A program made the position numbers and the translations under genes. Positions 1 to 19,359 of a stretch of 19,359 nucleotides of DNA are shown here, piece by piece. Source of the DNA: a virus (Duplodnaviria; Heunggongvirae; Uroviricota; Caudoviricetes); the IMG/VR virus record IMGVR_UViG_2703718791_000007, positions 1 through 19,359 of that record; one strand, written 5' to 3'. Below the pieces are notes generated by a model. That model was given only the letters and a program-made list of their open reading frames with translations, did not search any database and was not told the origin of the DNA. How positions within the stretch are numbered: position 1 is the stretch's first letter; every line of letters starts with the position of its first letter.

Positions 1-103
1 GTATTCCGAAAAATGGCAACGACGAACGCATTCCGTCTGGCGTCACCGCCACTGGCACGCATCTGCCTTCACGGGGATTTGCAACGATTTGGCCGCCGCC
101 TCA
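1..103. repeat. Left arm of a 103-bp perfect inverted repeat (reverse complement of 261..363)
   Basis: Direct comparison: reverse complement of 261..363 equals 1..103 base for base; identity stops at position 104/260. The arm reaches window position 1, so its true length may be larger. Contains the first 30 codons of a gene I homolog on the plus strand. Confidence 0.9.
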
Positions 104-260
104 GCCTGTATGTGAACACGGCAGCGGAAGCCATCCGTGCCCTGTCGATGCAGATGCCGGGATTCCGCCGCCAGATGAACGAAGGCTGGTACCAGATACG
201 TATTGCTGGTGAGGACACGGCACCGGAGGCGGTGTATGCCCGCCTTCACGAACAACTGGG
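13..260 (+). pseudogene. I: Tail assembly protein I, 5' fragment (codons 1-83) in inverted orientation relative to K; ORF runs on into the inverted arm and ends at 321
   Basis: Plus ORF 13..321 begins MATTNAFRLASPPLARICLHGDLQRFGRRLSLYVNTAAEAIRALSMQMPGFRRQMNEGWYQIRIAGED, collinear with lambda gpI as recalled (MAATHTLPLASPGMARICLYGDLQRFGRRIDLRVKTGAEAIRALATQLPAFRQKLSDGWYQVRIAG). After codon 83 it reads into the inverted arm and loses similarity. Confidence 0.7.
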
Positions 261-992
261 TGAGGCGGCGGCCAAATCGTTGCAAATCCCCGTGAAGGCA
301 GATGCGTGCCAGTGGCGGTGACGCCAGACGGAATGCGTTCGTCGTTGCCATTTTTCGGAATACCTCTCCCGTTTACTCAGTTGTTCAGGCAGATGGTGAA
401 GCAGTTCACCGTTGCCGCAGTAAATGGCGGCATGATTGGCCACCGATGCGCCAAAGCAGCACAGCAGGATATCGCCAGGCTGTGCGGAAGGCAGGGAAAT
501 CCTGTAAAAACCAGTCGCCTCCATATTGTCCAGGTAAAGGTTCTGACCGTTGCGCCACCAGTCATCCTCACGCTCAAAATCCGGCATATCAATTCCCGCC
601 AGATGGTAGGCATCCCGGAACAGCGTGTAACAGTCCGTCACCCCGTGCTCAAAGCGCCGTCCTGTCAGATGTGGCACACAGCGGAATTTATGAATTTCCC
701 CCCGGCAGACCAGCCACCAGAACAGTGCACTTTTTATCTGCAGCCGCCGGTCGGCCTCGCTCAGCCAGGGCAGACCACCGGGATGACTGTGGACCAGTGC
801 CACAATCTCCCCCTGCATCTCTGCCCGCAGCCAGTCTTCCGGTGCGATACGAAAATACGCCTCCGGCTCTGCAGAGATATTCACACAAGGGATATACCGT
901 TCCCCCTCCGGCGTGCTTATCACGAAGCCGCACGACTCCGCAGGCGCACACCGCCGGGCATGCGCCAGAATCGCTGATTCAGTCTGTGTCAT
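246..992 (-). CDS. K: Tail tip assembly protein K (JAMM/MPN metalloprotease motif plus NlpC/P60-like domain)
   Basis: Starts MTQTESAILAHARRCAPAESCGF at ATG 990..992, inside track ORF 246..1253. Contains HSHPGG...SEAD (JAMM-type motif) and DCYTLF (NlpC/P60-type Cys). Strong similarity to lambda gpK as recalled. The last 4 codons lie in the 157-bp segment between the inverted arms. Confidence 0.9.
   Translation of the reverse strand: MTQTESAILAHARRCAPAESCGFVISTPEGERYIPCVNISAEPEAYFRIAPEDWLRAEMQGEIVALVHSHPGGLPWLSEADRRLQIKSALFWWLVCRGEIHKFRCVPHLTGRRFEHGVTDCYTLFRDAYHLAGIDMPDFEREDDWWRNGQNLYLDNMEATGFYRISLPSAQPGDILLCCFGASVANHAAIYCGNGELLHHLPEQLSKRERYSEKWQRRTHSVWRHRHWHASAFTGICNDLAAASPSCS
261..363. repeat. 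Right arm of the 103-bp inverted repeat; carries the K 3' end and an I-type start codon on the minus strand
   Basis: Same comparison as the left arm. On the minus strand, ATG at 349..351 opens MATTNAFRLASPPLARICLHGDLQRFGRRL, which matches the lambda gpI N-terminus as recalled. Confidence 0.9.
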
Positions 993-1002
993 AAAACAGG
1001 AT

Positions 1003-1701
1003 TTACTGCGAAAGTTTATTGATGGAAAGGAAACCGCCAAAATTGACCGCCATGCCGCGCATCTCACACCCGCGCATGCATTTACTGCATCTGTCCTTCC
1101 GGATATCCGTGGTGGGTTTATCGAACTCATCCGCCACAGCCCCGCCCGTGTAACCACACTCATCAGAGCGGTAGGTCCACATACAGGTGTTCGCCAGCAT
1201 GATACGACCGGGAAACAGCGCTCCGTCCGTCTCGGTCGGTGTGGCCAGCACAAACGAGGCCGTCATGGCTGTCAGCTGCGACATCTGCTCCACCACCCAG
1301 CGGTCGCTCAGCTCCTGCTCCGGGTCCGCTTCCGGATTGCCCGCCACAAAATTCACCGCATCCAGAAAACGGGCATACACCCGGCGGCGGACCACCGTGG
1401 CCCCCACCAGGCTCTGCAGGTCCTCCGCCATCCCGGTGACCAGACCAAACAGATTGGACACCGTCAGCGACGGTCTGGCACTGCTGCCCTTCCCGTTCAT
1501 CTCAAAGCCACTGCCGTCAATCGGGTATGCCTGATATTGCCGCCCCTGCCAGGTGACCGCCTCCCCTTTTTCATTCAGCTCATTGCAGAAAAAATACCGC
1601 TCACCACCCTGTACCGTCAGGTCGATTTCCCAGAGTACCACCCGCGGTGACTGCTCTGATTTAACCGACTCGTTCAGACTTTCTTCGTGAATATCCTGCA
1701 T
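1003..1701 (-). CDS. L: Minor tail protein L
   Basis: 232-aa ORF, MQDIHEESLNE...FGGFLSINKLSQ, with the C-terminal Cys cluster; collinear with lambda gpL as recalled. Its ATG overlaps the M stop as ATGA. Confidence 0.92.
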   Translation of the reverse strand: MQDIHEESLNESVKSEQSPRVVLWEIDLTVQGGERYFFCNELNEKGEAVTWQGRQYQAYPIDGSGFEMNGKGSSARPSLTVSNLFGLVTGMAEDLQSLVGATVVRRRVYARFLDAVNFVAGNPEADPEQELSDRWVVEQMSQLTAMTASFVLATPTETDGALFPGRIMLANTCMWTYRSDECGYTGGAVADEFDKPTTDIRKDRCSKCMRGCEMRGMAVNFGGFLSINKLSQ

Positions 1702-2030
1702 CAGTTCACCACCTGCTTAAACTCGGCACTGAATTCAACCCGCAGCATGCGAACCCGTGATGACCAGGCGGCACAGGTCACCTTTATCTGCCGCTAGGCA
1801 TAAGGCGGTGTCCACAGAAACGCCTTCCAGCCACCGTGCTCTGCCAGGAATGCCTCCAGATGTCGGGCCTCCTCCCGGGTCACGGAAAGCGTCACACGGT
1901 ATGTTTTCAGGTCAGCATTCAGCCCCGCCGCCATACGCTGCGAATACCCGTCACCAAAACGCACTTCACGCACCGATGGCTGCGAGTTCACCTCCATATC
2001 CGGCTTCACTTTCCAGCGAAATGTTTTCAT
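1701..2030 (-). pseudogene. M: Minor tail protein M interrupted by an in-frame TAG at 1794..1796 (codon 79 of 109)
   Basis: ORF 1794..2030 gives MKTFRWKVKP...FLWTPPYA then TAG. Continuing in the same frame gives RQIKVTCAAWSSRVRMLRVEFSAEFKQVVN then TGA at 1701..1703, matching the lambda gpM C-terminus as recalled (YEWRQIKVTCAKWSSRVSMLRVEFSAEFEQVVN). The TAG sits where lambda has Trp. Confidence 0.85.
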
Positions 2031-4582
2031 CGCCTGCCTCCGGAAAAGACGCCGCCATCACGCATCTGCGCCTGAATCTCATCCTGCGCCCCCTTGCGGG
2101 CCATGTCATACACCGCCTTCATCAGCTGCGGCCCCGCCTGTCCGTTGGTGCCGTCGTTCTGAATCACCACGTGATTGTTCTGATTAAAATTAATGCCTTC
2201 CGTCCGCCGCATCTGCGCCGGACTTCCGGCACCGCCGACATAACCGCCATCCGCATACCCCCGCATCAGACGGTACAGGTTGCCGACACCAATCCGGCTG
2301 GTTGCCTCCTTCGTGAAGACAAATTCACCACGGTGAACAATCCCCGCTGGCTCATATTTGTCGCCGGTTCCCGTAAATCCTCCGGTTGCAAAATGGAATT
2401 TCGCCGCAGCGGCCTGAATGGCTGTACCGCCTGACGCGGATGCGCCGCCACCAACAGCCCCGCCAATGGCACTACCGATACTCCCGACTATCCCCACCAT
2501 CGCCTGCTTCAGAAAAATCTCTGTCAGCATGGAGAGCACAGAACGGGTGAAACCACGCCAGTTCTGTTCGCTGCCGGTCAGCATCGCTGCCATATTCTGT
2601 GCAATACCGTCAAAGGTCTGCGTGGCCACGCTTTTAACCTGCGAAAAACTGTCCGTCGCACTTTCTGCCCACTCGCCCCAGCCGGACTTCAGACCGGCCA
2701 TCCAGCTTCCACGAAGCTGCTCCTCCGCAGACCAGGTGTTCTTCAGTGCAGATGTGGCCTTCGCCAGCGCATCCGGATTATCACCGTACACGTCACGAAG
2801 GCGCTGCTCTTCCGACTCCCGCTGCGCCTGACGGTCGGTGAGGCCGCGGGCTTTTGCGCTGATGGCTGCCTGCTTCGCGCTCTGCTGCTGTTCAAACCGC
2901 GCCGCCTGCTGTGCCAGCTCATTCAGCCGTTTCTGGTGTTCAACCTTGTCGCCAAGCTCAGCCAGCTGGCGTTTGTACTCCAGCGTCTCTTTCTCATGGG
3001 CCAGCAGGGATTTTTCCTGCTCAGATAACTGGCGTTTCGTGGCAGCCTCTTTCAGGACCGCATACTGATTTTCCGCTTTCCATAAATCGCGACGCTGCTG
3101 GCTGATTTTCTCATTCGCACCGCTGTGTTTTTCCAGCGTCCGGAGCTCGGTTTCAAGCGCCAGCAGGGCTGCATGCGCCCGGTCTTCCTGGCGCTCACCG
3201 GCAGACACCTTCACAGCAGATGGCTTTTTCAGCGTCGACTCATAATCCTTTTTCGCCGCCGCCATCAGCGTGTTGTAATCCGCCTGCAGGATTTTCCCGT
3301 CCTTCAGTGCCTTGTTCAGTTCTTCCTGACGGGCGGTATATTTCTCCAGCGGCGTCTGCAGCCGTTCGTAAGCTTTCTGCGCCTCTTCGGTATATTTCAG
3401 CCGTGACGCTTCAGTATCGCTCTGCTGCTGCGCATTTTTGTCCTGTTGACTCTGCTGTTCAGCCTTCTTTCTCGCGGCTTCAAGCGCAAGACGGGCCTTT
3501 TCACGATCATCCCAGTAACGCGCCCGCGCTTCATCGTTAACAAAATAATCATCCTTGCGCAGACTCCAGATGTCGTCCGCTTTCTTAAACGCAGCCTCTG
3601 CCTTAATCAGCATCTCCTGAGCGGTATCAGGACGACCAATATCCAGCACCGCATCCCACATGGATTTGAATGCCCGTGCTGTCCTGTCTGCCCAGGTCTC
3701 TAGCGTACCCATGTTCTCTTTCAGGCGGCGGGTCTGGTCATCAAATCCTTTCGTCGCGGCCTCGTTCGCCGCCTGCAATGCCCCGGCTTCATCGCCGGAA
3801 CGCTGCAACTGAGCAACATACGCAATCTGCTCCGCCGTCACGTTATGGAACTGGCGTGCCATCGCTGTCAGCCCTGACGTCGGGTCTGTGGTCAGCTTCC
3901 CGAAGGCTTCAGCGACCTTGTCCACCTCCACGCCGGATGCAGAGGAGAAACGCGCCACACTCTGGCTGATGGATGCAATCTGAGCCTCACCGCTTACTCC
4001 CGCCTTAACCAGTGCGCTGAGTGACTCGCTGGTCTGGTTAAACGTCAGCCCTGCCGCCTGCCCGGCTCTGGACAGGACCAGCATACGATCTGCCGTCAGA
4101 CCCGACTGATTGCCGGAAAGGACCAGCGTTTTGTTGAAATCGGACAGGGTTGAGTTGCCCTGATACCAGGCATACGCCAGCGCACCTGTCGCCACCGCCA
4201 GCGAGGTGACCCCGACCATCGGCAGGGTGATCGCACCGGCAAGCCCCCTGAACATGGGGATCATCCCGCCGAAGGAGTCCTTCACCTGACCGCCCTGTTG
4301 CAGCAGGATCAGCCAGGGATTCTGACCACCGGCAAGCTGCGTGGCGATATCCGTAAACTGTGCGGGCAGGGTTCGCATGGCCGCTTTATACTGCCCGACG
4401 GAAATCCCGGCTTTTTGTGCAGCCAGCGCCTGACGACTCAGGTTCTGCTCAACGACACCGGCGGTTTTTCTGGCGTCAGTCTCCAGTCCGGAAAAATGAC
4501 GCCTTACCCGGCTCATCTGCTCATCGAAACGGACCGCATCCAGACTCAGGTCAATAACAAGATCACCAACCGGCTGGGACAT
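2027..4582 (-). CDS. H: Tail tape measure protein H
   Basis: 851-aa ORF MSQPVGDLVIDLSLDAVRFDEQ...GGVFSGGRR, near-collinear with lambda gpH as recalled; long coiled-coil middle region and Gly-rich C-terminal region. Confidence 0.95.
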   Translation of the reverse strand: MSQPVGDLVIDLSLDAVRFDEQMSRVRRHFSGLETDARKTAGVVEQNLSRQALAAQKAGISVGQYKAAMRTLPAQFTDIATQLAGGQNPWLILLQQGGQVKDSFGGMIPMFRGLAGAITLPMVGVTSLAVATGALAYAWYQGNSTLSDFNKTLVLSGNQSGLTADRMLVLSRAGQAAGLTFNQTSESLSALVKAGVSGEAQIASISQSVARFSSASGVEVDKVAEAFGKLTTDPTSGLTAMARQFHNVTAEQIAYVAQLQRSGDEAGALQAANEAATKGFDDQTRRLKENMGTLETWADRTARAFKSMWDAVLDIGRPDTAQEMLIKAEAAFKKADDIWSLRKDDYFVNDEARARYWDDREKARLALEAARKKAEQQSQQDKNAQQQSDTEASRLKYTEEAQKAYERLQTPLEKYTARQEELNKALKDGKILQADYNTLMAAAKKDYESTLKKPSAVKVSAGERQEDRAHAALLALETELRTLEKHSGANEKISQQRRDLWKAENQYAVLKEAATKRQLSEQEKSLLAHEKETLEYKRQLAELGDKVEHQKRLNELAQQAARFEQQQSAKQAAISAKARGLTDRQAQRESEEQRLRDVYGDNPDALAKATSALKNTWSAEEQLRGSWMAGLKSGWGEWAESATDSFSQVKSVATQTFDGIAQNMAAMLTGSEQNWRGFTRSVLSMLTEIFLKQAMVGIVGSIGSAIGGAVGGGASASGGTAIQAAAAKFHFATGGFTGTGDKYEPAGIVHRGEFVFTKEATSRIGVGNLYRLMRGYADGGYVGGAGSPAQMRRTEGINFNQNNHVVIQNDGTNGQAGPQLMKAVYDMARKGAQDEIQAQMRDGGVFSGGRR

Positions 4583-5434
4583 ATCTCACACCTCCGGAAA
4601 TCCCCGCTGAAGCCATCATTAATGCGGCATCATCCACCATGACATCCGCCACATCCGCAGACGATAAAATCTCACGCCCACCGTCCCCACCAAACCGTAC
4701 GCCTCCGGCAAGTCCTGCCGCTTTCTGCATCAGCATTTTTTCCTCATCCGGCATCTCCGTCTGCGCTTCCTCACGCCGGGGGGCAAGCAGACTGAAATCA
4801 GAGGGATGCATATCCGGATCGCAAAAAAACAGGCTGAGTACGGCGTACGTCAGCCCGGAAAAATGCATATCCAGTTGGGTATCGAGAAAATAATGCGTAC
4901 GGTAAAAATGTCGCCAGTCGGCATATTCGGTGGATGTCATCCCGGCAAGCATGGCGCGCCAGTCAGGCCTCCCCATCTCACGCGCCAGTCTGAGGGCAAA
5001 ATTCAGCTCGCCGTCGAAGACTTTCCCGCAGAAAAATCATCATCAGTCAGCGCGTTATTTTTCGCCACTTCGGTGCTGTCAGTATCCGCATGAACAGCCC
5101 CGCTCATCCCGGACAGACACAACACCACATCTTCCGCCCGGGCAATGGCATCCGCAGGCCAGGTGGTGAGCACCTCCTGTTCGATCTGCATCACAGCCTC
5201 ATTCATTGACGGTGATGCCGTTTTCTGCGGATGGTTATGCCACAGGGACATCGCCACCAGAAACGCGCCGGTTCTGACGAGATCTTCCACGCTTACCTGC
5301 AGGTTGCCGCTGGATTCTGCCTGTTCTGCACGCCGTTTCAGGAGGGCAAGATGCTCAATACGCTGCAGCGCAGACAATTCGGAAAGCGTGACGGACACAC
5401 CGTTATATTCAAATTGTTCTGTTTTCAGAAACAT
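4563..5434 (-). CDS. T: Tail assembly chaperone G-T fusion made by programmed -1 frameshift; T-specific part 4563..5020
   Basis: T frame (track ORF 4563..4976) is contiguous with G through a -1 shift at the heptamer G GGA AAG (minus strand, 5021..5027), the same slippery sequence as lambda G/GT. The post-shift reading VFDGELNFALRLAREMGRPDWRAMLAG joins the T ORF. Confidence 0.85.
5003..5434 (-). CDS. G: Tail assembly chaperone G
   Basis: 143-aa ORF MFLKTEQFEYNGVSVTLSELSALQRIEHLALL...; GGAGG Shine-Dalgarno upstream; slippery heptamer 18 nt before its stop. Similar to lambda gpG as recalled. Confidence 0.9.
   Translation of the reverse strand: MFLKTEQFEYNGVSVTLSELSALQRIEHLALLKRRAEQAESSGNLQVSVEDLVRTGAFLVAMSLWHNHPQKTASPSMNEAVMQIEQEVLTTWPADAIARAEDVVLCLSGMSGAVHADTDSTEVAKNNALTDDDFSAGKSSTAS
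5021..5027 (-). other. Slippery heptamer G GGA AAG for the G to G-T -1 ribosomal frameshift
   Basis: Plus-strand ctttccc at 5021..5027 is GGGAAAG on the minus strand, in the X XXY YYZ register of the G frame (…TCT GCG GGA AAG TCT…). Confidence 0.85.
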
Positions 5435-5447
5435 GTATTACCTCCGT

Positions 5448-6200
5448 TTACCCTGCAGCGCCCGCTTCAGTAACGGTGACTTCAGCCACTGCGGCGAACT
5501 GACCATTTCCGCTCACCACAGGGATCTGCACCTTACCTGTCGCCACGCCGTTTACCGTAATTGTCATATCTTTCACACTAATGGTGGCTTTCGACGGATC
5601 GGCGGAAACCGCTCTGAACGTCTTGTCTGTTGCACTTTCCGGCTCAAAAGAAACCGTCAGGGTGGTTGTTTTCCCTTTTGCCACCGTACCGGATGTCGGC
5701 GTCACCTTAATCGCACTGACCGGCGTAATTTTGCTGCGTTCTTCCGCTACAGAAGGTTTACCCACGTTAGTGACTTTCACCGTGCGGGTGATCACTTCTT
5801 TCGCCGTCACGGCCTTACCGATACTGCTGACCCAGCCACGAAACACATCCACCGTGCCATTCGGAAAACGGATTTTATAGGCCCGGACATCGCCGCTTTC
5901 AAACCAGCCTATAAGCCCTTTCTGGCCTTCCTCTCCCGGTTTCCAGGCCAGCGTAAAACTGGTATCACCTGCAGATTTCTGCCCCTGCCCGGTCGCGGTC
6001 CAGTCCGCGTCTTCATCATCCAGGTAGTTATCATCGTAGGATTCTGCCGTCATCTCGCCCGGCGTCAGATCCTTCACCTTAGCCAGTCGCTGCCAGTCAT
6101 CGTCTGACAACGGGTTTGCATAAGCGTCACCCTGACCGTTGTAAACCCACAGAGTGGTACCGGCACCTTTTACCGGCTCAAGGGGATTTGGTGTTGCCAT
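5448..6200 (-). CDS. V: Major tail tube protein V with C-terminal Ig-like domain
   Basis: 250-aa [34 protein letters not shown]...; position between U and G and size match lambda gpV; the C-terminal ~90 aa look like a Big_2-type Ig-like domain. Confidence 0.9.
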
Positions 6201-6207
6201 ATCGTCC

Positions 6208-6603
6208 TCACATCTCGTATGTAATGGAATAAGTCAGATCTGCAGAACTCCATAACGCCATATCGTCATCACGACGATACTCATAGCCCTGCGTAACCAT
6301 CGTGGTAATCAGTCCTGCCAGTGCCGGGATCGCGGTCATCGCCGGGTAAATCCGGCTTTCCATCCACTGATCAAGCTCTGAATCCGGTACCTGTGCCGGT
6401 AAAAACACCTCAATATGCAGCGTGGCCCGCCAGGTATCTGCATCCAGCTCTTCACCGGTATACTCTGCATCCGTCAGATAAACCGCGATCGCAGGAAAAT
6501 CCTCTTCGTCAAAAACAACGGGGCGACCATCAAACAGCGTCGCCCCGTGTTCATGCTGCTCGAGTGCATCCAGCACTGCGGCACGAATGTCAGTGTGTTT
6601 CAT
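6208..6603 (-). CDS. U: Tail terminator protein U
   Basis: 131-aa [36 protein letters not shown]...[10 protein letters not shown], collinear with lambda gpU as recalled. Confidence 0.92.
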
Positions 6604-7133
6604 CGTTTTATTGCAATCCTCAGTTGTTGTTTCAGCGCGGATGCCAGTTCTTTAGGCAGGCGTTCACGCCGGATACGGTCAACATTCTCATCAAATGCCT
6701 GTTTCAGTGGGGCCGCCATCGGGATTTTCACCACATCAATGGGGTAACGGTTTTTCCCGGCCACACGCTGCATGACATGCCAGCGACCATTTTTTAATCG
6801 CTGAATAAATGCCCGCTGATACCGATGCTGACCGGCTTTAAGTATGCTGTCCGGACGACGCCCCGGCATCCTGATCCCCAGCTTAATCACAGGGAGATCA
6901 CCGCGGTTAACGATAATTCTGGCATTCGGATTTCTGACCGTCGCCCGTTTCAGTCTGGACCGTTCCTTAACCAGTTTCCGGCGAACCTTTGTCTCCCGGG
7001 CAACCTGTGATGAAGACTGATTAATCGCCGTTGTGGCCACGCGGTTAATGGCCATTGCTGAAGCCGCCGGAATGGCGTTTTTACGAACCCGACTCAGATT
7101 ATCAATCGCCTGCTCAAGCCCTTTTATCGCCAT
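6600..7133 (-). CDS. Z: Tail completion protein Z
   Basis: 177-aa ORF MAIKGLEQAIDNLSRV...[22 protein letters not shown], matching lambda gpZ as recalled; 4-nt overlap with U. Confidence 0.9.
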   Translation of the reverse strand: MAIKGLEQAIDNLSRVRKNAIPAASAMAINRVATTAINQSSSQVARETKVRRKLVKERSRLKRATVRNPNARIIVNRGDLPVIKLGIRMPGRRPDSILKAGQHRYQRAFIQRLKNGRWHVMQRVAGKNRYPIDVVKIPMAAPLKQAFDENVDRIRRERLPKELASALKQQLRIAIKR

Positions 7134-7148
7134 AATTTCACCCTGCGT

Positions 7149-7502
7149 TTATCGTCGCCGGTTAACGGCGGGTGGTTTCCCACGGTTGAGCCAGAGATAA
7201 CAGCTGCCCCCGTCATCCGGAGAAACACGATCCACCCAGAACGTCTCACCATTAATGGTCAGCGTGTCACCACGCCGCACAGCACGAACCGTATCCGTCC
7301 GCACAAATAATGACGGGCTGCTTCCTTCAATACGGACCCCGCCACCGGCAAACCCCAGCGACTCCGGATCGTCAAAAACCCCCTGAACTTCGCTGCCACA
7401 CTGTGCCCCCGAGGTGAACTGCGCACAGAGCCCCATCACTTCAACAATCGTGCTGTCCACCCCGGCGAGGGCAGCATCAAAGGCATTCTGAAAATCACGC
7501 AT
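7149..7502 (-). CDS. FII: Head-tail connector protein FII
   Basis: 117-aa ORF MRDFQNAFDAALAGV...DRVSPDDGGSCYLWLNRGKPPAVNRRR; the C-terminal half is nearly identical to lambda gpFII as recalled. Confidence 0.9.
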   Translation of the reverse strand: MRDFQNAFDAALAGVDSTIVEVMGLCAQFTSGAQCGSEVQGVFDDPESLGFAGGGVRIEGSSPSLFVRTDTVRAVRRGDTLTINGETFWVDRVSPDDGGSCYLWLNRGKPPAVNRRR

Positions 7503-7878
7503 GCTCAGCCGTTCCGTGCTGTATCATGGCTGTCGCCAGTGGTGATGGCACCAGAACACGCATGCCCCGGTACGTCAGTTCAACGGGACGGCCTGTCTCC
7601 GGGCAATACCCCATCACATGCAGGCATTTCCGCACACGGACCGCTTTAACATCATCCGTAGCATCAGTGTTGTGCAACTGCTCACCATCGTCTGTGTGAT
7701 TTTGCTCAGGCCCGCTCTCATCACCAGGCATAATGCCCTCCCGGGAAGCAGCAAGCTCCTCTTCCCACTCAGACACACGTTGCGCAATATCCGCAGCACT
7801 CCCCGACATATCCGCCTCGCGCCCCAGCAGGCCAGCCAGTTGACGAAGACGTTTCTGATTTTCTTCTTTTGTTGCCAT
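7495..7878 (-). CDS. FI: DNA packaging protein FI-like
   Basis: ATG at 7876..7878 with AGGGGG Shine-Dalgarno; product MATKEENQKRLRQLAGLL...; sits in the lambda FI position between E and FII. Sequence similarity to lambda gpFI is weak, so the call is positional. The track ORF start at 7926 is an upstream non-ATG extension. Confidence 0.65.
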   Translation of the reverse strand: MATKEENQKRLRQLAGLLGREADMSGSAADIAQRVSEWEEELAASREGIMPGDESGPEQNHTDDGEQLHNTDATDDVKAVRVRKCLHVMGYCPETGRPVELTYRGMRVLVPSPLATAMIQHGTAEHA

Positions 7879-7893
7879 ATCAGCCCCCTGTGA

Positions 7894-7921
7894 AAAAAGA
7901 CACGGGGGCATTTCGCCCCCG
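7894..7921 (-). terminator. Intrinsic-terminator-like hairpin plus U-tract between capsid gene E and FI
   Basis: Plus gggggc(atttc)gccccc at 7904..7920 gives a 6-7 bp GC stem; on the minus-strand transcript it is followed by UGUCUUUUUU (plus aaaaaa 7894..7899). Confidence 0.45.
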
Positions 7922-7929
7922 CTCACGGA

Positions 7930-16533: not shown

Positions 16534-17024
16534 GTATCCTCCGGATAATAAAAAGCCAGCTTAGTGCACTGAGTGCGGATATATTCCTGCGCCCCTTCCA
16601 GCTGCTTCTGCATTGTCATCAACCGTTCTCTGAGGATGAAATAATCCCGTTCAGCGGTGTCTGCCAGTCGGGGGCCGGTTGCATTATCCACGCTGGAGGT
16701 GCCGGTGGCTTCACGCACGGTACCGGGGCAGGTGGCGTTGACCCGCAGGCGCTTACGACCAGCGGCAACATCAGCGCGCAGAGTTTCAATTTCAGCTCTC
16801 GCATCGGCTAATTCCTTCGTGTATCTGGCATCAAGCGCAGCGACATCTCGCTGGCGCTGCTGCATGTCAGTAATAGTGGCATTCGCCAGTTTCAGCTCAC
16901 TGACTTTTTTATCGCGCTGCGCTTTGTAGGTGATGGCGTTATCGCGGTAATGATTCAGCCCCAGACTAAGCACACCACAGGCTACCAGCAGGACAATAAT
17001 CACCACACACAGAACACGGTTCAT
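16530..17024 (-). CDS. Rz: i-spanin Rz
   Basis: From ATG 17022..17024: [78 protein letters not shown]…[26 protein letters not shown], closely matching lambda Rz as recalled. The track ORF start at 17108 is an upstream non-ATG extension. Confidence 0.93.
16619..16804 (-). CDS. Rz1: o-spanin Rz1, lipoprotein embedded in the +1 frame of Rz
   Basis: [61 protein letters not shown]: lipobox VSAC, Pro-rich mature part, and near-identity to lambda Rz1 over [27 protein letters not shown] as recalled. Confidence 0.9.
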
Positions 17025-17242
17025 ATCACCACCAACGGATTGCCCAGACCAGAACAGCAATGGCCACAATACGAATGGCAAATGCCATTGCCCGAATAAG
17101 TTCAGCACTCATCTTTTTAAAGTTCACGATTTCAGCGCAATGACCAGTTTTGCCAGCCCATACAGCATCGGAGACACAGCAATACCAACAGCCACCCACT
17201 TAATAGCAAAAGCCAGCGCTCTGCTGATGTCATCAGTCACTG

Positions 17243-17374
17243 TCACCCCAGCAGCCCCGACGAAGACAACATCACCCAGGCGAGGGACAGAAAAAGAGCA
17301 ACCAGCATTAGTGAAAATGAAATACCGACAATCACACACAGGACCTTTGCCGGCGTTATGAGTTTGTCTGACAT
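17243..17374 (-). CDS. Candidate small membrane protein, 43 aa, in the R-Rz spacer
   Basis: Hand-translated MSDKLITPAKVLCVIVGISFSLMLVALFLSLAWVMLSSSGLLG; AAGGGG about 5 nt upstream of the ATG. A second hydrophobic reading (…DDISRALAFAIKWVAVGIAVSPMLYGLAKLVIALKS) follows in another frame. Confidence 0.35.
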   Translation of the reverse strand: MSDKLITPAKVLCVIVGISFSLMLVALFLSLAWVMLSSSGLLG

Positions 17375-17543
17375 AGCTACCCCTTAATTGCCACAATTAA
17401 CTGGGATACTACCCATAAAAAAGGGATGCTCCAGACCAGCAAAAATTTCCAGTTTGGTAATTGACTAATCATGAGTCGCAACTCCCTAATCAGTTTGCTA
17501 AAATCAATCAAGGCAGCCTCCCATAGCTTACTGCCATAAAAAC

Positions 17544-17580
17544 AAAACCCCGCTTGCTGCCAACAAACGGGGTTTTTACT
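17544..17580. terminator. Bidirectional intrinsic-terminator-like hairpin about 90 nt downstream of the endolysin gene
   Basis: aaaaCCCCG(cttgctgccaacaaa)CGGGGttttt: GC stem flanked by an A-run on one side and a T-run on the other, so both strands have stem plus U-tract. Confidence 0.55.
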
Positions 17581-17666
17581 TTTATTCACTTACGTTTCGC
17601 CAGTTCGCAGGATTTCATGTTATCCGCCCGCGTGGCCATGCCTTATTTTTCAGCAAAATATTCTGC

Positions 17667-18200
17667 TTATCTGTCGATACCCCAGCACGCCAGCGCGCTC
17701 TCCTGGTCACGACGGGATACCTGACCGTAGCAGTTGTTTGAACGAATACGGCAGTCTCTGCCAGCGTCCTTAATCCACCAGCGAATCGCCTCACATGCTC
17801 CCCTGCGATCACCAGCATTAATTCGTCTGTAAAACGTCGACGGGAAACACTTACCGGGACCAATGTTGTACGGACAGAATGACGCGATCCCCGCTTTCTG
17901 GGGTTCGGTCAATGGCACTTTGATGTTTTTCTCCACCCATGCCAGCGCCTTATCACGTTCGATGGCGTTAACCTGGTCGCATTTCTCCTTCGACAACTTC
18001 ATGCCCGGGACGACAGGTTTACCATCCACCAGAATGGCACCGCGACAGATGGTCCAGATACCCGCGCCATCACGGTATGCCGTGGTGTGGTTACCTTCCT
18101 TTTCATCCAGAAACTGGTCGAGAATGTCAGGCGCAGGCGCACCAGCGGCAATCAGCGCCAGAACGGCAGCCGACAGGCCGTATTTGATTTTGGTGTTCAT
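17667..18200 (-). CDS. R: SAR endolysin (phage lysozyme, T4/P21-type)
   Basis: 177-aa ORF with weakly hydrophobic Gly/Ala-rich N-terminal segment (YGLSAAVLALIAAGAPA) typical of a signal-anchor-release domain, followed by the catalytic E…D…T spacing (EGNHTTAYRDGAGIWT). Resembles the E. coli Qin prophage lysozyme as recalled. Confidence 0.9.
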   Translation of the reverse strand: MNTKIKYGLSAAVLALIAAGAPAPDILDQFLDEKEGNHTTAYRDGAGIWTICRGAILVDGKPVVPGMKLSKEKCDQVNAIERDKALAWVEKNIKVPLTEPQKAGIASFCPYNIGPGKCFPSTFYRRINAGDRRGACEAIRWWIKDAGRDCRIRSNNCYGQVSRRDQESALACWGIDR

Positions 18201-18236
18201 GGATATATTAAATATTCAGCCGCTGTCCCTGGCCCA

Positions 18237-18794
18237 CTAAATACGCACTTTAAGATAAGTCAGCCCCGGATGAAGCCAGTAAGCCGGCACTTTTTTAAAG
18301 GGTGGAGTATTAAAATCACGAAGAAGAGCCTCCCGCACAATTGCATCCTTATCAGCACCACTGGCCAGCGCTTCAATCTCAGCGGCTACCTGAAGATATC
18401 CCATGCAACGGCCAACGCGCTTCATCAGCCCCTGCTTTTTATTGTTCTTCAGGTAATCAATGGCAAATTCAATGAGCTCCTCACTGTGCTGGTGCGATGG
18501 AGGTGTTACTTTCCCATTTTCTGAGATGGTTATTTTCCCAGCATCACCGGATACAACAAAGGATGGCCGGTTACACTCCCATTCCAGCTCACTGAAATTA
18601 TCATTATGAATACTGAAACACTCTGAGAGATTTCTGCTCATCACTTTCCGACAATAATCGTCAAACGCAGCAAACTGCTCATCGCGGCGTTTTTTTTCAT
18701 CTTCAGAAGGCATCAGCGTCGACAGTTTTTTATTCAGTTCAGCAATTTCATTTTCCAGACGACTGAAGCGCTGATTCATTTCTTCATGGTTCAT
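18237..18794 (-). CDS. Hypothetical soluble protein, ~185 aa, between holin and endolysin genes
   Basis: ORF MNHEEMNQRFSRLENEIAELNKKLSTLMPSEDEKKRRDEQFAAF… (ATG 18792..18794; GTG 18795..18797 abuts the S stop). Predicted coiled-coil N-terminus, no hydrophobic segments. Local base composition looks more AT-rich than the tail genes. Family not recognised. Confidence 0.7.
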   Translation of the reverse strand: MNHEEMNQRFSRLENEIAELNKKLSTLMPSEDEKKRRDEQFAAFDDYCRKVMSRNLSECFSIHNDNFSELEWECNRPSFVVSGDAGKITISENGKVTPPSHQHSEELIEFAIDYLKNNKKQGLMKRVGRCMGYLQVAAEIEALASGADKDAIVREALLRDFNTPPFKKVPAYWLHPGLTYLKVRI

Positions 18795-18797
18795 CAC

Positions 18798-19013
18798 CTA
18801 ATCTCCCCGGGCAGCCTTGCGACGGTCCTCTTTAATTTTGAAATACAGGTTAGTCAGATACGTCAGCAGGCCAAACAGCAGACTCCCCAGCACACCTATC
18901 GCCACCCACTGGGACGGAGAGACTTTGTCCAGCAGCTGCAATAACCAGTATCCCGTCCCCACCGCTGACGTGGTGTATGACACACCTGTTGTGATTTTTT
19001 CCATCTGGTACAT
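18798..19013 (-). CDS. S: Pinholin, phage 21 S-type class II holin with dual-start motif
   Basis: 71-aa [74 protein letters not shown]; strongly resembles S21 and E. coli essD as recalled; Met1/Met4 dual start; two transmembrane segments. Confidence 0.92.
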
Positions 19014-19048
19014 ACCCCGTCTCCCGTTATCCGGAAGCTCACAACATG

Positions 19049-19078
19049 AAAAAGGCCAGCAGCTGTTTACTGATGGCC
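19049..19078 (-). terminator. Weak hairpin plus U-tract immediately upstream of S, possibly a tR'-like late terminator
   Basis: Minus strand GGCCATCAG-TAAACAG-CTGCTGGCC followed by TTTTTC, 30-35 nt before the S ATG; the stem has one mismatch. Confidence 0.3.
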
Positions 19079-19089
19079 CTGACTCCCCG

Positions 19090-19359
19090 TTACAGCATCA
19101 TGACCGATTCGGGTTGAGGTTCAGTCGCATCGGCGACCGGTGATTCAGGCTGAACTTCACCGCTCTCTGCGGTGGTATCTCCCGCTTCAGTCGGTGGCTC
19201 TGCCTGTACACCAAGCAGCTCATCCAGAATGGCATCAACCTCTGCATCAAGACGCGCTTCCAGGTTATGGCGAAGTTTTTGTTTCAGTGCGCTCAGGACT
19301 TCTTCAGAGCGCAGGACTTCCTTCACTGCCTCAGCAGTGACCAGGGATGTAATTTCTGA
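19090..19359 (-). CDS. 3' part of an ORF running off the window edge; acidic Pro/Glu-rich C-terminus; function unknown
   Basis: The frame is open from the window edge to the stop at 19090: …[89 protein letters not shown]. No homolog recognised; coding status uncertain. Confidence 0.35.

What the first reader, a model, noticed from the sequence alone, without database searches (positions are those of the whole stretch)
1701..2030. Tail tip protein M truncated by an in-frame amber codon with an intact downstream tail
M stops at TAG 1794..1796 (codon 79), yet the next 30 codons in the same frame reproduce the lambda gpM C-terminus as recalled, ending at a TGA that overlaps the L start as ATGA. 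The stop replaces the Trp codon of lambda; TGG to TAG is one substitution. This looks like a recent point inactivation or a base-call error rather than long-term decay.
Basis: partly seen in the sequence, partly recalled or inferred. Interest (0 to 1): 0.5.

Follow-up and report, generated by a model that had tools for sequence, protein, structure and literature searches.

The report
Amber-inactivated prophage tail gene M
A lambda-like prophage of E. coli has lost its tail gene M, and also its DNA-packaging gene, to single-base changes at sites where the host methylates cytosine; this is real but ordinary prophage decay.

Summary
Gene M lies on the minus strand (2030..1701). An in-frame TAG (1796..1794) replaces Trp79, and 30 intact codons follow. 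One detail is wrong: the M stop and L start overlap as TGATG, while ATGA is the H-stop/M-start overlap.

The nearest intact alleles differ from M here at that one base (TGG to TAG). It is not a base-call error: the same TAG is in at least eight other NCBI assemblies.

The terminase large subunit has CAG to TAG at codon 376 (13477..13475).

Both changes are C-to-T at the inner cytosine of a Dcm site (CCWGG to CTWGG). That is the classic 5-methylcytosine deamination hotspot. A double-amber genome and a no-amber sister differ by 3 substitutions in 13.7 kb, and 2 of them are these ambers (P about 6e-5). The same M amber arose independently in strain E105.

About 30% of possible Dcm deaminations in this region give an amber, so there is no sign of selection.

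Verdict: an ordinary, recent prophage pseudogene at a known hotspot. RefSeq already annotates the same M amber in strain E105, and the terminase amber in 2010C-3053, as 'internal stop'.

The parts
1701..2030 (-). Gene M (lambda gpM-type distal tail protein, Pfam PF05939), now a pseudogene: 78 codons, TAG, 30 codons, TGA
1794..1796 (-). In-frame amber codon TAG replacing Trp79 (TGG in intact alleles)
1794..1798 (+). Mutated Dcm site: CTAGG here, CCAGG in intact alleles. The inner C at 1795 became T on the plus strand, which is the template strand of M
1701..1793 (-). Untranslated C-terminal remnant of M (30 codons plus TGA), identical to the intact allele
2027..2030 (-). ATGA overlap of the M start codon with the stop codon of tape-measure gene H
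1699..1703 (-). TGATG overlap of the original M stop with the L start. This is a translational-coupling junction that ribosomes stopping at codon 79 no longer reach
   Evidence: the coupling effect is inferred
1003..1701 (-). Gene L (PF05100), intact here at 232 aa. Its C-run at 1401..1405 has 5 bases, against 6 (a frameshift) in most close relatives
12674..14602 (-). Terminase large subunit gene (gpA type), a pseudogene: 375 codons, TAG, 266 codons
13475..13477 (-). Second in-frame amber, Gln376 (CAG) to TAG, inside the nuclease domain
13474..13478 (+). Second mutated Dcm site: CCTAG here, CCTGG in the intact allele. The inner C of the minus (coding) strand became T

Best explanation
The window is a contig (GCA_001606595.1, LOGC01000185.1) holding the late operon of a lambda-like prophage of E. 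coli. Its tail gene M encodes the distal tail protein, which in lambda forms a six-copy ring joining the tail tube to the tip. M was knocked out by a real, heritable C-to-T transition at the inner cytosine of a Dcm methylation site (CCAGG to CTAGG on the plus strand), which turns Trp79 (TGG) into amber (TAG). The likely mechanism is spontaneous deamination of 5-methylcytosine to thymine that escaped very-short-patch (Vsr) repair. This step is inferred from the sequence context, not shown. The same process hit a second Dcm site and turned Gln376 of the terminase large subunit into amber. As a result the prophage cannot by itself make full-length gpM or terminase, so it cannot package DNA or finish tails. 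The truncated gpM lacks the last 31 of 109 residues of a single beta-sandwich domain. Early termination 93 nt before the TGATG junction probably also lowers translation of L and later tail genes; this too is inferred. The downstream M codons look intact only because the mutation is very young.
For: The only difference from the intact allele in M is G to A in codon 79. The same TAG is present in independent assemblies: GCA_003015285.1, GCA_000194215.2, GCA_005393035.1, GCA_028909355.1, GCA_001607265.1, GCA_026134195.1 and GCA_012494245.1. It is also in the complete genome E105, where RefSeq annotates 'internal stop'. The terminase amber is in all nine loci retrieved, including three Logan assemblies of SRA runs, and in O111:NM 2010C-3053, also annotated 'internal stop'. 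Both changes are at the inner C of CCWGG, and only 2 of the 40 Dcm sites in the region are altered. The double-amber locus L033 and the no-amber sister L032 differ at 3 positions in 13,710 bases, and 2 of these are the ambers. The probability that at least 2 of 3 fall on Dcm inner cytosines is about 6e-5. Recurrence: E105 carries the same TAG in a different prophage (H region about 10% diverged), while its sister genome PE164 has the same prophage at the same tRNA-Ser/hyaA site with TGG. Literature: Vsr repairs T:G mismatches in CTWGG/CCWGG that arise by deamination of Dcm-methylated cytosine, and vsr mutants show frequent C-to-T changes at these sites (PMC2715241). In lambda, gpM is a hexameric distal tail protein ring with all 109 residues in one fold (PMC10721106; PDB 8iyk). 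The truncated product covers only profile positions 1-76 of 108 of PF05939.
Against: Methylation of this site in the host was not measured, and the dcm and vsr genes of the source strain were not seen. Deamination is therefore inferred from the motif and the transition type. A polymerase error at the same base would look identical. Loss of function was not tested. Low-level natural readthrough of UAG, or supply of gpM from a second prophage in the same cell, could mask the defect. I could not look at raw reads for the window's own assembly.
Confidence: 0.85

Rival explanations
1. The TAG is a sequencing or assembly error. One example would be a methylation-induced nanopore miscall at the Dcm site. 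The gene would then really be intact.
For: The site is a Dcm motif, and base modifications are known to cause strand-specific nanopore errors (PMC11610603). The window has an odd fold-back at its left end that looks like an assembly artefact. For the single genome E105 this explanation cannot be excluded.
Against: The same TAG is present in at least eight other NCBI assemblies with different accession prefixes and their own private differences. The companion terminase amber is found in Logan assemblies of three different SRA runs. The window shows no scatter of homopolymer indels against its nearest relative, OkiPb01713: 18 mismatches and 2 gaps over 19.1 kb. The same paper reports about 99% read accuracy within CCWGG with current models.
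Confidence: 0.03
2. The amber codons are functionally read through, by a host amber-suppressor tRNA or by leaky termination. The prophage would then still make some full-length gpM and terminase and remain viable.
For: The downstream codons of both genes are intact and in frame. Few copies are needed, since the solved lambda structures contain six gpM chains per tail. The base after the M amber is C, which from general knowledge is a weaker termination context in E. coli.
Against: The window has no tRNA gene and no Rfam match. The stop is not conserved: only 1 of 421 complete genomes carrying this 61-mer family has TAG. The intact downstream codons are explained by youth alone, given 3 differences in 13.7 kb. 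Close relatives show further damage, namely a frameshift in L and an IS insertion. That fits decay rather than maintenance.
Confidence: 0.05
3. The knock-outs were favoured by selection on the host, as prophage disarming or domestication, and are not neutral hits at a hotspot.
For: Both Dcm-site changes in the region are nonsense, and they hit two different essential modules, packaging and tail. The same M amber arose twice.
Against: 24 of the 80 possible Dcm deaminations in this region (30%) would create an amber. Two nonsense hits out of two therefore has P of about 0.09 under neutrality. Loss of terminase or gpM does not stop prophage-induced lysis, so the benefit to the host is unclear (inference). 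Recurrence is expected at a mutational hotspot.
Confidence: 0.07

Closest known systems
Bacteriophage lambda gpM (distal tail protein; Pfam PF05939 Phage_min_tail; PDB 8iyk, 8iyl, 8k35, 8xcg, 9e7m)
   Same: Same length (109 codons) and same position between H and L, with the same overlapping start and stop signals. With the stop read as Trp, the protein aligns over residues 1-109 at E = 6.5e-58, and Trp79 is present in lambda.
   Different: The reading frame is cut at codon 79, so only profile positions 1-76 of 108 can be made. About 20 residues differ from lambda across the protein.
Amber mutations at Dcm sites: the 5-methylcytosine hotspots of lacI and lambda cI, and very-short-patch repair. 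Coulondre et al. 1978 is cited from my own knowledge; Lieb 1991 is cited in PMC2715241.
   Same: The same motif (CCWGG), the same base (the inner C), the same change (C to T) and the same outcome (CAG or TGG becomes TAG). It recurs at the same site in an independent lineage.
   Different: Here the mutations are fixed in natural prophage lineages rather than selected in the laboratory. Methylation and Vsr status were not measured.
Defective lambdoid prophages of EHEC/EPEC-type E. coli. The 'defective prophage pool' of O157 (Asadulghani et al. 2009) is cited from my own knowledge.
   Same: A lambda-like late operon with point lesions in morphogenesis genes. It sits in genomes that hold several near-identical copies of the same tail genes (median 2, up to 13 places per genome). 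Relatives carry sodC and effector cargo.
   Different: Complementation or mobilisation by co-resident prophages was not tested here.
RefSeq pseudogene annotations 'internal stop': M in E. coli E105 (J0O73_RS09060) and the terminase in O111:NM 2010C-3053 (KP537_RS10420)
   Same: The identical amber codons in identical 61-base contexts.
   Different: Each of those complete genomes has only one of the two ambers. The window and its clade have both.

Membership tests
Lambda gpM / Phage_min_tail (PF05939) distal tail protein | Sequence match to the family profile and to lambda gpM | tested here: met
   PF05939 at E = 7.5e-39 over profile positions 1-108 with the stop read as Trp. PDB 8iyk_M at E = 6.5e-58 over residues 1-109.
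Lambda gpM / Phage_min_tail (PF05939) distal tail protein | Gene order H-M-L-K-I with overlapping stop and start codons | tested here: met
Lambda gpM / Phage_min_tail (PF05939) distal tail protein | Uninterrupted reading frame giving the full beta-sandwich domain | tested here: not met
   TAG at codon 79. The product covers profile positions 1-76 of 108.
Lambda gpM / Phage_min_tail (PF05939) distal tail protein | Assembly into a hexameric ring between the tail tube and the tip | not testable with these tools
   Known for lambda (PMC10721106).
Nonsense pseudogene in a defective prophage | Premature in-frame stop relative to intact close orthologs | tested here: met
Nonsense pseudogene in a defective prophage | The stop is a real allele, seen in independent samples | tested here: met
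Nonsense pseudogene in a defective prophage | Other lesions in the same element or in its close relatives | tested here: met
   Terminase amber. L frameshift and an IS insertion in relatives.
Nonsense pseudogene in a defective prophage | Loss of function: no virions, no suppression | not testable with these tools
   Needs induction and complementation experiments.
Dcm-site 5-methylcytosine deamination hotspot mutation | The mutated base is the inner C of CCWGG in the ancestral allele, and the change is C to T | tested here: met
   CCAGG to CTAGG at 1794..1798 and CCTGG to CCTAG at 13474..13478.
Dcm-site 5-methylcytosine deamination hotspot mutation | Excess of substitutions at such sites relative to other positions | tested here: met
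   2 of 3 substitutions in 13.7 kb, P about 6e-5.
Dcm-site 5-methylcytosine deamination hotspot mutation | Independent recurrence at the same site | tested here: met
   E105 against its sister genome PE164. A sequencing error in E105 is not excluded.
Dcm-site 5-methylcytosine deamination hotspot mutation | The host has active Dcm and the site is methylated | not testable with these tools
   The host genome outside the window was not examined, and no methylation data exist here.
Programmed stop-codon readthrough or recoding | The stop codon is conserved across diverged orthologs | tested here: not met
   1 of 421 complete genomes with this 61-mer family has TAG. The carriers that share the window's H/tape-measure allele are near-identical to it. 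The only other carrier, E105, is an independent private change.
Programmed stop-codon readthrough or recoding | A suppressor tRNA or known recoding RNA element in the locus | tested here: not met
   No tRNA and no Rfam family in the window.

The most novel reading that the evidence does not exclude
Host Dcm methylation may act as a systematic, recurrent disarming mutagen for resident lambdoid prophages. In this late operon 24 of 40 Dcm sites are one deamination away from an amber codon. The same Trp79 amber in M arose at least twice, and a double-amber lineage arose within 3 substitutions of its intact sister. The lesions might be tolerated, or even reversible, because co-resident prophages carry identical intact M copies that could complement or gene-convert them.
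Probability: 0.1. Interest if true: 0.35.

Novelty: already known. Interest (0 to 1): 0.12.

Why it matters
This matters mainly for annotation and housekeeping. It shows that the interrupted M gene is a true allele and should be annotated as a pseudogene. It also shows that the prophage has a second lesion, in the terminase gene. So the prophage should be scored as defective for packaging and tail assembly when judging whether it can spread its cargo. The Dcm context gives a clean natural example of a textbook hotspot and a caution: CCWGG sites in frame with CAG or TGG are the first places to look for recent prophage knock-outs. They are also places where methylation-related sequencing errors could mimic them. 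Nothing here opens a new question.

Tried and rejected
1. Base-call error: rejected, because the TAG is present in many independent assemblies.
2. Selection for knock-outs: 30% of possible Dcm deaminations give ambers, so two out of two has P of about 0.09, which is not significant.
3. Suppressor tRNA or recoding RNA in the window: none found.
4. Identity by descent of the E105 amber: rejected in favour of independent origin, because the sister genome PE164 has the same prophage with TGG.
5. Naming the source strains from accession prefixes in the paper library: no useful hits.
6. Fetching CP027597.1 from the complete-genome collection: it is not held there.
7. Using the L homopolymer to order the events: all four combinations of the M79 state and run length exist, so the run length is too unstable, or too error-prone, to be informative.
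8. PMC8495745 was read for nanopore error patterns at CCWGG, but it only describes methylation detection.

Full report
**What is in the sequence**

The window carries the late operon of a lambda-like prophage on its minus strand. The genes run from the lysis genes through Nu1, A, W, B, C, D, E, FI, FII, Z, U, V, G, T, H, M, L and K to the start of I. Gene M occupies 2030..1701. Translated on the minus strand it reads 78 residues, a stop, 30 residues, then a stop.

The M start overlaps the H stop as ATGA (2030..2027). The original M stop overlaps the L start as TGATG (1703..1699).

With the stop read as Trp, the protein aligns over all 109 residues with lambda gpM of the solved tail structures (8iyk_M, E = 6.5e-58). 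Position 79 is Trp in lambda, and 27 of the 30 downstream residues are identical. Pfam PF05939 covers profile positions 1-108 of the restored protein but only 1-76 of the truncated one.

**Is it a single substitution?**

Yes. Over window 1600-2130 (M plus the adjoining H and L ends) no complete E. coli genome is identical. The best matches are 99.8% identical. Aligning M with O55:H7 CB9615 and 2014C-3061 (protein WP_000847304.1) shows 329/330 identity, and the only difference is G to A in codon 79. The nearest complete genome overall is OkiPb01713 from bovine faeces in Okinawa. It is 99.83% identical over window 252..19359 and has TGG.

**Is it real?**

Yes. An exact look-up of the 78-residue product found it on many contigs. 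Some of these are only contig-end fragments. The TAG itself is present in these assemblies:
- GCA_003015285.1
- GCA_000194215.2
- GCA_005393035.1
- GCA_028909355.1
- GCA_001607265.1
- GCA_026134195.1
- GCA_012494245.1

It is also in the complete genome E105, where RefSeq annotates the gene as a pseudogene with an 'internal stop'. These assemblies have different accession prefixes and their own private differences. A base-call error in one run cannot explain them. The window itself is contig LOGC01000185.1 of GCA_001606595.1.

**A second amber**

The comparison with OkiPb01713 turned up a second nonsense change. Plus-strand 13477 is A instead of G, which turns codon 376 of the terminase large subunit from CAG into TAG. 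The stop lies in the nuclease domain. This allele is also widespread. All nine loci retrieved with the 375-residue fragment carry TAG, including Logan assemblies of three SRA runs. O111:NM 2010C-3053 has it annotated as 'internal stop'. The window's clade carries both ambers.

**Mutational context**

Both changes sit at Dcm sites:
- At M the plus strand reads CTAGG where intact alleles read CCAGG.
- At the terminase the plus strand reads CCTAG where intact alleles read CCTGG.

In both cases the inner cytosine of CCWGG on one strand became T. These are the only 2 of the 40 Dcm sites in the region that are altered.

Dcm methylates that cytosine. Its deamination gives a T:G mismatch that Vsr normally repairs, and vsr mutants show frequent C-to-T changes there (PMC2715241). 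From my own knowledge, these are the classic amber hotspots of lacI and of lambda cI.

The excess is measurable. The double-amber locus L033 and the no-amber sister L032 differ at only 3 positions in 13,710 bases, and 2 of them are the ambers. The chance that at least 2 of 3 substitutions fall on the 62 methylated cytosines is about 6e-5.

The same M amber also arose separately. E105 carries it in a different prophage, with an H region about 10% diverged from the window. The sister genome PE164 has that same prophage at the same tRNA-Ser/hyaA site with TGG. A sequencing error in E105 alone cannot be excluded.

**Selection or neutral decay?**

I enumerated every possible Dcm deamination in the region against the annotated genes. 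The outcomes were 24 of 80 amber, 47 synonymous, 7 missense and 2 non-coding. Two nonsense hits out of two therefore has a probability of about 0.09 under neutrality, so there is no evidence of selection.

Relatives show further damage. Most close relatives, including some without the ambers, have an extra base in a homopolymer of L. One relative has an IS3-family insertion upstream of Nu1. The picture is ongoing decay of a defective prophage. The intact 30 codons after the stop reflect youth, not maintenance.

**Consequences (inferred)**

In lambda, gpM forms the hexameric distal-tail ring that joins the tube to the gpL/gpJ tip, and all 109 residues belong to one beta-sandwich fold (PMC10721106). 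Loss of the last 31 residues should abolish it. Termination 93 nt before the TGATG junction should also weaken coupled translation of L. Without full-length terminase the prophage cannot cut and package DNA.

E. coli genomes that hold this region have a median of 2 and up to 13 copies of it. Several draft contigs end exactly at the polymorphic base, with A or with G. That suggests intact and amber M copies can share a genome, so complementation in trans is possible. It was not tested.

**Readthrough**

I considered readthrough and rate it unlikely. There is no tRNA gene and no Rfam match in the window. The stop is not conserved: only 1 of 421 complete genomes with this sequence family has it.

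**Comparison with known things, and verdict**

This is a nonsense pseudogene of a lambda gpM-family gene in a defective lambdoid prophage, created at a textbook mutational hotspot. RefSeq already annotates the same allele as a pseudogene in another genome. It is real and recent, and it is ordinary. The added value of this second look is the second amber, the shared Dcm context, the evidence for recurrence, and the rejection of the sequencing-error reading.

Noticed in passing
window 12674..14602 (-), stop at 13477..13475: The terminase large subunit gene carries its own in-frame amber (Gln376 CAG to TAG), also at a Dcm site. It is shared with many assemblies and annotated 'internal stop' in O111:NM 2010C-3053.
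   Followed up: yes
window 1..363: There is a fold-back at the contig end. Bases 1..103 are the exact reverse complement of 261..363. The spacer holds the continuation of the inverted gene I copy, and the junction has a TGAGG microhomology. The true continuation of gene I is missing. This looks like a chimeric-read or assembly artefact rather than biology.
   Followed up: partly
window 1401..1405 (gene L): A homopolymer of 5 C (plus strand) leaves L intact here. Most close relatives, with or without the ambers, have 6 and a frameshifted L. All four combinations with the M79 state exist, so the run length changes repeatedly or is mis-sequenced in some assemblies.
   Followed up: partly
window 16216/16217: A 13-base deletion in an intergenic stretch between the lysis genes and Nu1, relative to both OkiPb01713 (L005) and GCA_003015285.1 (L016).
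   Followed up: no
L016 7673..8978 (corresponds to window about 15617..15625): A relative with both ambers has a roughly 1.3 kb IS3-family insertion upstream of Nu1. The window lacks it.
   Followed up: no
L009..L013, contig ends: Several draft contigs stop exactly at the polymorphic base of codon 79, one ending ...CCTA and four ending ...CCTG. This is expected if the same genome holds M copies that differ at that base and share the sequence downstream.
   Followed up: partly
window 1342..1447 (gene L): Eight substitutions cluster here relative to OkiPb01713 but are absent relative to L007 and L008. This looks like a short recombination patch between prophage L alleles.
   Followed up: no
L031 (GCA_000194215.2) positions 440, 1934, 4504, 11230: Four differences private to this assembly are all G:C-to-A:T transitions. 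None is at a Dcm site.
   Followed up: no
L035 (PE164) portal, major capsid and tape-measure genes: Three late genes are annotated as frameshifted in PE164 but are intact in its near-identical sister E105. The differences are small indels, possibly long-read sequencing errors.
   Followed up: no
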